From Escherichia coli (GTDB lineage: Bacteria; Pseudomonadota; Gammaproteobacteria; Enterobacterales; Enterobacteriaceae), in NCBI RefSeq assembly GCF_003018255.1, contig NZ_CP027440.1: a stretch of 64,000 bases of DNA; one strand, given 5' to 3'. This document shows, piece after piece, positions 3,001 to 6,000 of the stretch. How positions within the stretch are numbered: position 1 is the first letter of the stretch; each line of letters opens with the position of its first letter. A program made the position numbers.

Positions 3001-6000
3001 GATTAACCGCGTGGCCACAACGGCGATTAATCAGTCTTCATCACAGGTTGCCCGGGAGACAAAGGTACGCCGGAAACTGGTTAAGGAACGGTCCAGACTG
3101 AAACGGGCCACGGTCAGAAATCCGAATGCAAAAATTATCGTTAACCGCGGTGATCTCCCTGTGATTAAGCTGGGGATCAGAATGCTGGGGCGTCGTCCGG
3201 ACAGCATACTCAAAGCCGGTCAGCATCGTTATCAGCGGGCATTTATCCAGCGATTAAATAATGGGCGCTGGCATGTTATGCAACGTCTTCCCGAAGCCAG
3301 ATATGAGAAGGGCTATGACGACAAGGGCAGGAAAAAGCGTAATCGCCTTCCCATTCAGGTGGTGAAAATCCCGATGGCGGCCCCACTGAAACAGGCGTTT
3401 GATGAAAACGTTGACCGTATCCGTCGTGAACGCCTGCCCAAAGAACTGGCATATGCGCTGAAACAACAACTGAGGATCGCGATAAAACGATGAAACACAC
3501 TGATATTCGTGCCGCAGTGCTGGATGCACTCGAGCAGCATGAACACGGGGCGACGCTGTTTGATGGTCGCCCCGTTGTTTTTGACGAAGAGGATTTTCCC
3601 GCGATCGCGGTTTATCTGACGGATGCAGAGTATACCGGTGAAGAGCTGGATGCAGATACCTGGCGGGCCACACTGCATATTGAGGTGTTTTTACCGGCAC
3701 AGGTACCGGATTCAGAGCTTGATCTGTGGATGGAAAGCCGGATTTACCCGGCGATAACTGCGATCCCGGCACTGGCGGGCATGATTACCACGATGGTTAC
3801 GCAGGGCTATGAGTATCGTCGTGATGACGATATGGCATTGTGGAGTTCTGCAGATCTGACTTATTCCATTACATACGAGATGTGAGGACGATATGGCAAC
3901 ACCAAATCCCCTGGAGCCGGTAAAAGGTGCCGGCACCACACTGTGGGTTTACACCGGCAAGGGTGATGCTTATGCAAACCCGTTATCAGACGATGACTGG
4001 CAGCGACTGGCGAAGGTGAAGGATCTGACGCCGGGCGAGATGACGGCAGAATCCTACGATGATAACTACCTGGATGATGAAGACGCGGACTGGACCGCGA
4101 CTGGACAGGGACAGAAATCTGCCGGTGACACCAGTTTTACGCTGGCCTGGAAGCCCGGCGAGAAAGGGCAGCGCGATTTGATTGCCTGGTTTGACAGCAG
4201 TGAGAGCCGGGCCTACAAAATCCGTTTCCCGAATGGCACGGTGGATGTGTTTCGTGGCTGGGTGAGCGCCATTGGTAAAGCGGTGACCGCCAAAGAGGTG
4301 ATCACCCGTACGGTAAAAATCACCAATATCGGTCGTCCGTCGCTGGCGGAAGATCAGGGGGACATCACACCGGTCACCGGTATTACCGTGACGCCACCAA
4401 CGGGCAATGTGGCAAAAGGTCAGAATATCACCCTGACCGTGGCTGTTCAGCCGGAAGGGGCGACAGATAAAACCTTCCGCGCCACGTCGGCGAATCAGAA
4501 TTTTGCGACCATTACCGTGAAAGGGAACACGATCACGGTGAAAGGTGTTGCGGCAGGTAAAGCGCAGATCCCTGTGGTCACCGGCAATGGTGAGTTTGCG
4601 GCGGTGGCGGAGATCACCGTCACGGATGGCGCTGCAGGCTGAGAGGGGAGATAAAGCATGTTTCTGAAAACAGAACAATTTGAATATAACGGTGTGTCTG
4701 TCACGCTTTCTGAGCTGTCTGCGCTGCAGCGTATTGAGCATCTTGCCCTCCTGAAACGGCGGGCAGAAGAGGCTGAAGCCAGCGGCAACCTGCAGGTGAG
4801 TGTGGAAGATCTTGTCAGAACCGGCGCGTTTCTGGTGGCGATGTCCCTGTGGCATAACCATCCACAGAAAACGCAGTCACCGTCAATGAATGAGGCCGTG
4901 ATGAAGATAGAGCAGGAAGTGCTCACCACCTGGCCTGCCGATGCCATTGCCCGGGCGGAAGACGTTGTGTTGTGCCTGTCCGGGATGATCGAAGCTGTTC
5001 GTCCGGATACTGATATTACTGAAGTGGCGAAAAATAACACGCTGACTGATGATGATTTTTCTGCGGGAAAGTCTTCGACGGCGAGCTGAACTTTGCCCTC
5101 AGACTGGCGCGTGAGATGGAGAGACCCGACTGGCGCGCCATGCTTGCCGGGATGACATCCACCGAATATGCCGACTGGCGACGTTTTTACCGCACGCATT
5201 ATTTTCACGATACCCAGCTGGATATGCATTTTTCCGGGCTGACGTACGCCGTACTCAGCCTGTTTTTTTGCGATCCGGATATGCATCCCTCGGATTTCAG
5301 TCTGCTTGTCCCCCGGCGTGAGGAAGCGCAGACGGAGAGGCCGGATGAGGAAGACATGCTGATGCAGAAAGCGGCAGGACTTGCCGGAGGCGTCCGGTTC
5401 GGTGGGGAGGGAGGGGGCGATATTTCACCTTCTGCGGATGTGGTGGATGTCAGCGAGGATGATGTTGCATTAATGATGGCTTCAGCGGGGATTTCCGGAG
5501 GTGTGAGATATGTCCCAGCCGGTTGGTGATCTTGTTATTGACCTGAGTCTGGATGCGGTCCGTTTCGATGAGCAGATGACCCGCGTAAGGCGTCATTTTT
5601 CAGGACTGGAGACTGACGCCAGAAAAACCGCCACTGCTGTTGAGCAGGGGCTGAGCCGCCAGGCGCTGGCTGCACAAAAAGCCGGGATGTCCGTCGGGCA
5701 GTATAAAGCCGCCATGCGTATGCTACCCATGCAGTTCACCGACGTGGCCACGCAGCTTGCCGGTGGTCAGAATCCCTGGCTCATCCTGCTGCAACAGGGC
5801 GGTCAGGTGAAGGACTCATTCGGCGGGATGATCCCCATGTTCCGGGGGCTTGCCGGTGCGATCAGCCTGCCGATGGTCGGGGTCACCTCGCTGGCGGTGG
5901 CGACCGGTGCGCTGGCGTACGCCTGGTACCAGGGGGATTCCACGCTTTCAGCGTTTAATAAAACCCTGGTTCTTTCCGGTAATCAGTCAGGACTGACGGC

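What the first reader, a model, noticed from the sequence alone, without database searches (positions are those of the whole stretch)
5065..5071. Conserved GGGAAAG -1 frameshift site for G-T in both prophages
Both tail chaperone G genes carry the slippery heptamer GGGAAAG a few codons before the G stop (5065..5071 and 62011..62017), and in each case the -1 frame is open and encodes the T domain that the ORF track shows as a separate ORF. Standard ORF callers would mis-annotate T as an independent or truncated gene.
Basis: partly seen in the sequence, partly recalled or inferred. Interest (0 to 1): 0.3.

Follow-up and report, generated by a model that had tools for sequence, protein, structure and literature searches.

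The report
Lambda G-T tail chaperone frameshift sites
Both lambda-like prophages in this E. coli window carry the textbook "slippery" site at which a small fraction of ribosomes slip back one base to extend tail-assembly protein G into the longer G-T protein; it is real and strongly conserved, but it was described in 1993 and is ordinary.

Summary
GGGAAAG lies at 5065-5071 and at 62011-62017. Both copies are on the + strand and in the phase G_GGA_AAG of a gpG-type gene (4658-5089 and 61613-62035), with five codons between AAG and the TGA stop. The -1 frame runs on for 152 and 144 codons and encodes the gpT domain. The stitched proteins (290 and 279 aa) match the G and T family models end to end.

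Copy 2 is phage lambda's own G-T region, with 4 base differences in about 1.3 kb. Copy 1 is a 75%-identical allele that is common in E. coli prophages.

Comparative evidence supports frameshift entry rather than an independent T start:
- Copy 1 has no start codon for 15 conserved codons after the site.
- Substitutions there are synonymous only in the -1 frame.
- All 306 related loci that reach the site keep an in-phase N_NNA_AAG heptamer at the same position.

The mechanism is the -1 programmed ribosomal frameshift of Levin, Hendrix and Casjens (1993), so this is already known.

One side result: a stable RNA fold is predicted 7 nt downstream of both sites. Tests for selection on it were inconclusive to negative.

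The parts
4658..5089 (+). Gene G, copy 1 (tail assembly chaperone gpG, 143 aa), the zero-frame product
   Evidence: ORF. PF06894 E=2e-50 and TIGR01674 E=3e-48. PGAP names it 'phage tail assembly chaperone G' in identical DNA.
5065..5071 (+). Slippery heptamer G_GGA_AAG, copy 1
   Evidence: Position, phase and distance to the stop computed. It is conserved in all related loci.
5071..5529 (+). -1 frame T segment, copy 1 (152 codons plus stop). Joined to G residues 1-138 it gives a 290-aa G-T fusion.
   Evidence: TIGR01715 covers fusion residues 143-252, which begins upstream of the first start codon in this frame (ATG 5116 = fusion residue 154).
61613..62035 (+). Gene G, copy 2 (140 aa); no base differs from lambda J02459 within G
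   Evidence: PF06894 E=6e-61.
62011..62017 (+). Slippery heptamer G_GGA_AAG, copy 2 (equals lambda 10109-10115)
62017..62451 (+). -1 frame T segment, copy 2 (144 codons plus stop). Joined to G residues 1-135 it gives a 279-aa G-T fusion.
   Evidence: Lambda T is annotated at the equivalent 10115-10549.
3893..4642 (+). Major tail protein V, copy 1 (upstream neighbour)
5510..8089 (+). Tape measure protein H, copy 1 (downstream neighbour; overlaps the end of T by 20 nt)
60857..61597 (+). Major tail protein V, copy 2
   Evidence: L002 33857-34597, plus 27000. The two sequences are collinear.
62444..64000 (+). Tape measure protein H, copy 2 (runs off the window end; ATGGCTGA overlaps the T stop)
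5079..5149 (+). Predicted RNA fold starting 7 nt 3' of heptamer 1 (outer stem 5079-5086 with 5142-5149; inner hairpin 5105-5119 with 5126-5140). Function doubtful.
   Evidence: One search gives MFE -34.1 kcal/mol and z -3.0. The tests are inconclusive to negative.
62025..62095 (+). Equivalent predicted RNA fold 3' of heptamer 2. Function doubtful.
   Evidence: One search gives MFE -38.0 kcal/mol and z -4.3. The same follow-up tests apply as for copy 1.

Best explanation
Each site is the -1 programmed ribosomal frameshift signal of a lambda-type G/G-T tail assembly chaperone gene pair.

Most ribosomes read G in the zero frame and stop five codons after the heptamer, which makes gpG. A few percent slip while the Gly (GGA) and Lys (AAG) codons of G_GGA_AAG are being decoded. 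The tRNAs re-pair with GGG and AAA one base back, and translation continues in the -1 frame to make the G-T fusion (290 aa for copy 1, 279 aa for copy 2).

In lambda, many gpG molecules and a few gpGT molecules coat the tape-measure protein H. The T domain recruits the tail-tube protein V. The fixed ratio of about 30:1 is needed for tail assembly, and neither protein ends up in the virion.

Shown here: the sequence anatomy, the family membership, the identity with lambda and the comparative conservation. Taken from published lambda experiments and inferred for copy 1: the slippage itself, its rate and the chaperone role.
For: 1. Anatomy. The heptamer is in phase, five codons lie between it and the stop, and the -1 frame is open for 152 and 144 codons.
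2. Family. The stitched proteins match TIGR01674 + TIGR01715 and PF06894 + PF06223 well above the curated cut-offs.
3. Identity with lambda. Copy 2 is 99.7% identical to lambda and the site is unchanged.
4. No independent start in copy 1. The -1 frame opens only 5 codons before entry and has no ATG, GTG or TTG until 5116, which is 15 codons after the site. Those 15 codons (VFDGELNFALRLARE) are conserved. Lambda's GTG is GTC in copy 1 and GCA or GCC in relatives.
5. Substitution pattern. Between the two copies, 5 of the 7 differences in those 16 codons fall on -1-frame third positions. Four of the six changed codons are synonymous in the -1 frame and none when read in the G frame.
6. Island of identity. 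The roughly 70 nt before the site are diverged and carry indels. Identity resumes abruptly at TTTCTGCGGGAAAGT.
7. Conservation across relatives. 306 of 306 related loci that reach the site keep an in-phase N_NNA_AAG heptamer 33 nt before the LARE motif. Among the 293 scored loci, 79 have GGGAAAG, 210 have GGAAAAG and 2 have AAAAAAG; the remaining two G-T sites are single-base variants (GGCAAAG in L136, AGAAAAG in L151), and three other scored heptamers were spurious hits outside G-T that were filtered out. These relatives go down to 35% protein identity. The G stop follows 1 or 5 codons later.
8. Synonymous constraint. Synonymous variation drops to 0.17 at the last four G codons, against about 0.5 elsewhere.
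9. Public annotation. The N15 and LLS records mark the homologous position as the frameshift site.
10. Literature. PMC5009743, PMC3296357 and PMC7618472 describe lambda G_GGA_AAG, about 4% shifting and the 30:1 ratio.
Against: No expression data exist for these two prophages, so nothing shows they are induced or make tails. For copy 1 the frameshift rate is inferred from an identical heptamer in a 75%-identical gene and was not measured. In copy 2 a GTG overlaps the heptamer (62017), so sequence alone cannot exclude some independent initiation. That possibility is excluded only by the published lambda experiments.
Confidence: 0.96

Rival explanations
1. T is an independent gene translated from its own start codon (ATG 5116 in copy 1, GTG 62017 in copy 2), as RefSeq annotates it, and the heptamer is incidental.
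For: ORF callers and PGAP produce such CDSs. The original lambda record also lists T as a 144-aa CDS starting at the GTG.
Against: The GTG is not conserved: it is GTC in copy 1 and GCA or GCC in relatives. The ATG at 5116 lies 15 conserved codons inside the homologous region, and the TIGR01715 model starts upstream of it. Substitutions before that ATG follow the -1 coding frame. No Shine-Dalgarno-like sequence precedes either start (read directly). Published lambda work found only gpG and gpGT (cited in PMC3296357).
Confidence: 0.02
2. The frame change is made at the RNA level, by RNA polymerase slipping on the A run, rather than by the ribosome.
For: Some relatives carry a longer A run at the site (AAAAAAG in Stx-phage alleles). 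Transcriptional slippage is known for other phage and IS genes (PMC5009743).
Against: GGGAAAG has only three A's, which from general knowledge is far too short for efficient polymerase slippage. The conserved feature is the in-phase N_NNA_AAG tRNA re-pairing pattern, not the run length. Loss of tRNA-Lys thiolation changes the lambda G:GT ratio, which points to the ribosome (PMC3296357).
Confidence: 0.01
3. The G/T split is a decayed pseudogene or an assembly error, meaning an ancestral single ORF broken by a 1-nt indel.
For: A few metagenomic relatives do carry indels in homopolymer runs elsewhere in G or T (L003, L004, L053).
Against: The same split at the same nucleotide occurs in the lambda reference and in 306 of 306 loci spanning 35-100% identity. 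It is found in about two thirds of 5,426 complete E. coli genomes. The G stop codon 1 or 5 codons downstream is itself conserved.
Confidence: 0.01

Closest known systems
Bacteriophage lambda genes G and T: -1 programmed ribosomal frameshift at G_GGA_AAG (Levin, Hendrix & Casjens 1993; Xu, Hendrix & Duda 2013, 2014)
   Same: Copy 2 is this locus: G is identical, T has three base differences, and the heptamer, spacing and neighbours V and H are the same. Copy 1 has the same heptamer, the same five-codon distance to the stop, the same gene order and 75% protein identity.
   Different: Copy 1 has lost lambda's GTG at the entry point (it reads GTC). It has a diverged, three-residue-longer G C-terminal linker and a T tail 8 residues longer that overlaps H by 20 nt. 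Nothing differs in kind.
Conserved G/G-T-type frameshift of tail assembly chaperones in long-tailed dsDNA phages (Xu, Hendrix & Duda 2004), e.g. N15 genes 14/15, HK97-like LLS genes 11/12, Gifsy-2
   Same: Two overlapping ORFs lie between the major tail gene and the tape-measure gene, with an in-phase slippery heptamer at the end of the first and a -1 extension. N15 and LLS annotate the homologous nucleotides as the shift site.
   Different: Those relatives use G_GAA_AAG, and the Stx-phage alleles use A_AAA_AAG. The cdtI/Gifsy clade has one codon rather than five between the site and the stop.
E. coli dnaX and IS3-family -1 frameshift sites (A_AAA_AAG with flanking stimulators)
   Same: The shift chemistry is the same: tandem slippage with tRNA-Lys(UUU) on an A_AAG A-site codon.
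   Different: Those sites depend on an upstream Shine-Dalgarno-like element and/or a downstream stem-loop and shift at high efficiency. For the phage G-T sites the literature reports no stimulator (PMC5009743). My tests for a selected downstream structure were not convincing, and no Rfam family matches.

Membership tests
Lambda-type G/G-T tail assembly chaperone with -1 programmed frameshift | Two overlapping ORFs located between the major tail (tube) protein gene and the tape-measure protein gene | tested here: met
   Order V (3893-4642), G, T, H (5510-8089), and V (60857-61597), G, T, H (62444 onward).
Lambda-type G/G-T tail assembly chaperone with -1 programmed frameshift | [quoted passage not shown] | tested here: met
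   G_GGA_AAG in both copies, with five codons before the TGA.
Lambda-type G/G-T tail assembly chaperone with -1 programmed frameshift | The downstream ORF is in the -1 frame, is open from the site, and lacks its own conserved initiation signal | tested here: met
   152 and 144 open codons. Copy 1 has no start codon for 15 conserved codons. The -1 frame is closed 5-21 codons upstream of entry in all nine diverse relatives. The GTG in copy 2 is not conserved.
Lambda-type G/G-T tail assembly chaperone with -1 programmed frameshift | Sequence homology to gpG and gpT | tested here: met
   For copies 1 and 2 respectively: PF06894 at 170 and 204 bits (cut-off 27), PF06223 at 53.5 and 52.6 bits (cut-off 25.9), TIGR01674 at 163 and 217 bits (cut-off 74), TIGR01715 at 203 and 186 bits (cut-off 77).
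Lambda-type G/G-T tail assembly chaperone with -1 programmed frameshift | Evolutionary conservation of the shift site at the same position across relatives | tested here: met
   306 of 306 loci that reach the site keep it. Synonymous variation is 0.17 at the site against about 0.5 elsewhere.
Lambda-type G/G-T tail assembly chaperone with -1 programmed frameshift | Two protein products, G and the G-T fusion, at roughly 30:1 (about 4% shifting); both needed for tail assembly and absent from virions | not testable with these tools
   Known for lambda from the literature (PMC5009743 and PMC3296357). This applies directly to copy 2 by sequence identity and is inferred for copy 1.
-1 frameshift sites with a 3' RNA stimulator (dnaX / IS3 / viral type) | A conserved stem-loop or pseudoknot 5-9 nt downstream that is under selection | tested here: inconclusive
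   A stable fold starts 7 nt downstream (z -3.0 and -4.3), and 6 of 21 pairs show double-sided changes. Against a synonymous-recoding null, however, the two windows rank only 30th and 11th of 294 windows in the same genes. The RNAalifold consensus is weak (-8.9 kcal/mol). Synonymous sites there are not significantly more constrained (0.40 against 0.48, p=0.12).

The most novel reading that the evidence does not exclude
The fold predicted 7 nt downstream of the heptamer is an 8-bp outer stem enclosing a GC-rich hairpin. It is preserved with a few compensatory changes across the lambda, Stx, N15 and HK97-like alleles. The most novel reading is that this fold is a genuine modulator that tunes the G:G-T ratio. 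That would contradict the accepted view that the phage G-T shift has no stimulatory signal.
Probability: 0.1. Interest if true: 0.4.

Novelty: already known. Interest (0 to 1): 0.07.

Why it matters
The finding has practical value only. Automated annotation, here RefSeq/PGAP, splits G-T into two genes in both prophages and truncates T in copy 1. The true 290-aa and 279-aa fusion proteins are therefore missing from protein databases for a module present in about two thirds of complete E. coli genomes. The biology itself, a fixed-ratio frameshift that sets chaperone stoichiometry for tail assembly, is textbook.

Tried and rejected
1. Bare heptamer enrichment: there are 14 copies against 8.5 expected, which is not significant. 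The argument rests on context instead.

2. Downstream stimulatory structure:
- Folding gave stable structures, and both the dinucleotide-shuffle and synonymous-recoding z-scores were negative.
- A background of 294 in-frame windows from the same tail genes showed these values are not exceptional.
- Covariation counts exceed the shuffles, but the sequences are related and the cdtI/Gifsy clade breaks about 6 of the 21 pairs.
- RNAalifold finds only a weak core.
- Synonymous-site constraint is not significant.
- I therefore rejected it as a claim and kept it as a side note.

3. Rfam: there is no match in the whole window at gathering threshold, and none around site 1 at E<=1.

4. PDB sequence search with the fusion protein: no hit at E<=0.01.

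5. Xu et al. 2013 (PMC3762263) could not be read because it is not held. Statements on lambda experiments therefore rest on reviews and on Maynard et al. 2012.

6. The other two architecture hits, A_AAG_GGT at 28411 (-) and C_CCT_TTC at 4525 (-), were examined and dismissed as a gene-junction coincidence and an antisense ORF.

Full report
**What the window is.** The window is E. coli chromosome. Bases 1-25000 match E. coli O91 RM7190 at 99.1% identity, and bases 39001-64000 match strain 0-4 at 100%. Annotation of those records, together with a collinearity check, gives the layout below.
- Prophage 1 is lambdoid. Its head and tail genes occupy bases 1 to about 17.4 kb, and it ends next to potB.
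- Host genes follow: potBA, pepT, roxA, phoQP, then hflD, mnmA, nudJ, rluE and icd (29692-30942).
- Prophage 2 is a second lambdoid prophage integrated next to icd, with its integrase at 31056-32198. Its late region is of the DLP12 type, and its head and tail genes are essentially those of lambda.

So there really are two prophages. Both tail modules are on the + strand, about 57 kb apart.

**The observation.** GGGAAAG is at 5065-5071 and 62011-62017. The G genes start at 4658 and 61613. In both, the heptamer's first base is a codon third position, so the zero frame reads GCG GGA AAG followed by five codons and TGA. The zero-frame tails are SAGKSSTAS* and SAGKCSTVS*.

From the last G of the heptamer, the -1 frame is open for 152 codons (to 5529) and 144 codons (to 62451). 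It begins VFDGELNFALRLAREM... in copy 1 and VFDGELSFALKLAREM... in copy 2.

The heptamer alone is not statistically unusual: there are 14 copies against 8.5 expected. The architecture is unusual. I required a long zero-frame ORF upstream, a stop within 15 codons and a long -1 extension. Only these two of the 14 GGGAAAG copies meet that test. Across all XXXYYYZ heptamers on both strands, four meet it. The other two are an antisense-ORF artefact at 4525 (-) and the nudJ/mnmA gene junction at 28411 (-). Shuffled sequence gives 0.08 qualifying sites per window.

**What the genes are.** Joining G up to the AAG codon to the -1 frame gives proteins of 290 and 279 aa. Both match the G models at the N-terminus and the T models at the C-terminus, far above the curated cut-offs:

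| Model | Region matched | Copy 1 (bits) | Copy 2 (bits) |
|---|---|---|---|
| PF06894 | N-terminal (G) | 170 | 204 |
| TIGR01674 | N-terminal (G) | 163 | 217 |
| PF06223 | C-terminal (T) | 53.5 | 52.6 |
| TIGR01715 | C-terminal (T) | 203 | 186 |

Copy 2 is 99.7% identical to the lambda reference. It has four substitutions in about 1.3 kb: none in G or the heptamer, three in T and one in H. Copy 1 is a different allele, 75% identical to lambda G-T at the protein level. It is up to 100% identical to prophages of other E. coli strains and 97% identical to phage PhiR12_2.

The module is extremely common. Megablast finds it in about 3,650-3,700 of 5,426 complete E. coli genomes, typically twice per genome.

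**Evidence that the T frame is entered at the heptamer and not from its own start.**
- *No start codon in copy 1.* The -1 frame opens only five codons before the entry point. It contains no ATG, GTG or TTG until 5116, which is 15 codons after it. Lambda's GTG, used as the historical "T start", is GTC in copy 1, GCA in Stx-phage alleles and GCC in N15 and LLS. The 15 codons are nevertheless conserved, and the TIGR01715 profile begins at fusion residue 143, upstream of Met-154 (ATG 5116).
- *Substitutions follow the -1 frame.* Between the two copies, 5 of the 7 differences in the first 16 -1-frame codons fall on third positions. Four of the six changed codons are synonymous in the -1 frame, and none is synonymous when read in the G frame. 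The same bias holds across Stx1, N15 and LLS.
- *An island of identity at the site.* The DNA alignment of the two copies shows about 70 nt of heavy divergence with indels in the G C-terminal linker. Identity resumes abruptly at TTTCTGCGGGAAAGT.
- *Conservation across relatives.* I fetched 308 loci: 301 from IMG/VR using four different G-T queries, and 7 phage records. They span 35-100% protein identity. Of these, 293 meet all the architecture criteria. Thirteen more keep the heptamer but are truncated or carry an indel elsewhere, and two do not reach T. The heptamer always lies 33 nt before the LARE motif. It is GGGAAAG in 79 loci, GGAAAAG in 210 and AAAAAAG in 2. Two more G-T sites are single-base variants (GGCAAAG in L136, AGAAAAG in L151), and three other scored heptamers were spurious hits outside G-T that I filtered out. 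The G stop follows after 5 codons (201 sites) or 1 codon (94 sites); one of the spurious sites had 9.
- *Synonymous constraint at the site.* Synonymous codon variation among 27 representatives is 0.17 at the last four G codons, against about 0.5 elsewhere in G and T.
- *Public annotation of relatives.* The GenBank records of N15 and LLS mark the homologous nucleotides as the -1 frameshift site. HK630 and LLS annotate a joined GT product.

**Mechanism.** The mechanism is taken from the literature, not from my data. In lambda, about 4% of ribosomes slip -1 on G_GGA_AAG and produce gpGT, which has no independent initiation. Both frames read Gly-Lys across the site.

The roughly 30:1 gpG:gpGT ratio is required for tail assembly. 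The G parts bind the tape-measure protein H, and the T domain recruits the tube protein V. Neither protein is in the virion. Thiolation of tRNA-Lys(UUU) by the Tus/MnmA pathway restrains the shift. These points come from Levin et al. 1993 and Xu et al. 2004, 2013 and 2014, as summarised in PMC5009743, PMC3296357 and PMC7618472.

For copy 2 this applies directly, because the sequence is identical. For copy 1 it is a strong inference from an identical heptamer, identical spacing, homology and the comparative signals above.

**Annotation.** RefSeq/PGAP annotates G and T as separate CDSs in DNA identical to both copies. T is placed at 5116-5529, which drops 15 conserved codons, and at 62017-62451, which starts at the GTG inside the heptamer.

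**A side question: is there a downstream stimulator?** Folding the 79 nt after each heptamer predicts a stable structure that begins 7 nt downstream.
- The outer stem pairs 5079-5086 with 5142-5149 and encloses a GC-rich hairpin. Copy 2 is equivalent.
- The minimum free energies are -34.1 and -38.0 kcal/mol, with dinucleotide-shuffle z-scores of -3.0 and -4.3.

Because the accepted view is that this shift needs no stimulator (PMC5009743), I tested the fold further.
- *Recoding null.* Recoding T synonymously makes the fold weaker in all 14 diverse relatives (z -0.7 to -3.2).
- *Background windows.* The same statistic over 294 in-frame windows of the same tail genes has mean -0.34 and sd 1.1. 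The two post-heptamer windows rank only 30th and 11th.
- *Pair counts.* On 27 representatives, 86% of cells are paired and six pairs show double-sided changes, for example A-U, G-C and C-G at columns 16/84. This exceeds the shuffled and slid controls. However, the sequences are related, the structure was derived from one of them, and the cdtI/Gifsy clade breaks about 6 of the 21 pairs.
- *RNAalifold.* Its own consensus is weak: -8.9 kcal/mol with a covariation term of -0.1.
- *Synonymous-site constraint.* It is not significant in the structured region: 0.40 against 0.48, p=0.12.
- *Rfam.* There is no match.

I conclude that the fold is most likely a by-product of a GC-rich, highly conserved coding stretch (...LAREMGRPDWRAMLAG...). 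A modest modulatory role cannot be excluded without a reporter experiment.

**Verdict.** The feature is the classic lambda G-T programmed -1 frameshift, present once as lambda's own allele and once as a common variant allele. It is already known, and interest is low.

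Noticed in passing
window 27236-28342 (-) mnmA; hflD ends at 27200 (-): The host genes lying between the two prophages include mnmA. Its product thiolates U34 of tRNA-Lys(UUU), the tRNA that decodes the AAG/AAA of the slippery site. Its loss raises lambda G-T frameshifting (PMC3296357). hflD, a lambda lysogeny factor, is adjacent. This looks like a map coincidence only.
   Followed up: no
window 28405-28411 (-), two codons before the nudJ stop: An in-phase A_AAG_GGT heptamer lies at the end of nudJ, and the -1 frame stays open for 389 codons into the next gene, mnmA. It passed my architecture filter. The heptamer is a poor E. coli shift site and the two genes are simply 53 nt apart, so I judged it a coincidence.
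   Followed up: partly
window 5079-5149 and 62025-62095 (+): A stable RNA fold is predicted to start 7 nt after each heptamer, with a few compensatory pairs across phage clades. Selection tests were inconclusive to negative, and the literature reports no stimulator for this site.
   Followed up: yes
window 5116-5529 and 62017-62451 (+): RefSeq/PGAP annotates T as a free-standing CDS in identical DNA of other strains. The copy 1 model is truncated by 15 conserved codons, and the copy 2 model starts at a GTG inside the heptamer.
   Followed up: yes
window ~14571-14711 (+): A Hok/Gef-family toxin CDS sits between the tail tip gene J and the tail-fibre gene of prophage 1, according to the annotation of the 99%-identical RM7190 record. 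Rfam reported no Sok or other RNA hit anywhere in the window at gathering threshold.
   Followed up: no
window ~31056-64000: Prophage 2 is a mosaic. Its head and tail genes are lambda-like (99.7% identity to lambda was measured over the V-end/G/T/H-start region). They are joined to a DLP12-type region (emrE, ybcK-ybcO, rusA, quuD, a porin, essD/rrrD/rzpD, iss/bor), plus a serine/threonine kinase gene near the immunity region. The prophage is integrated beside icd.
   Followed up: partly
loci L136 and L151 (IMG/VR relatives): Two relatives carry single-base variants of the shift heptamer: GGCAAAG and AGAAAAG in place of GGAAAAG. GGCAAAG should not allow P-site re-pairing. It may be a sequencing error, a decaying prophage or an A-site-only shift.
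   Followed up: no
window 3986-4861 (-) and 4495-5286 (-): Long antisense ORFs (291 and 263 aa) run opposite V and G. One of them carries an in-phase CCCTTTC heptamer that passed my architecture filter. I treated it as an artefact of GC-rich coding DNA.
   Followed up: partly
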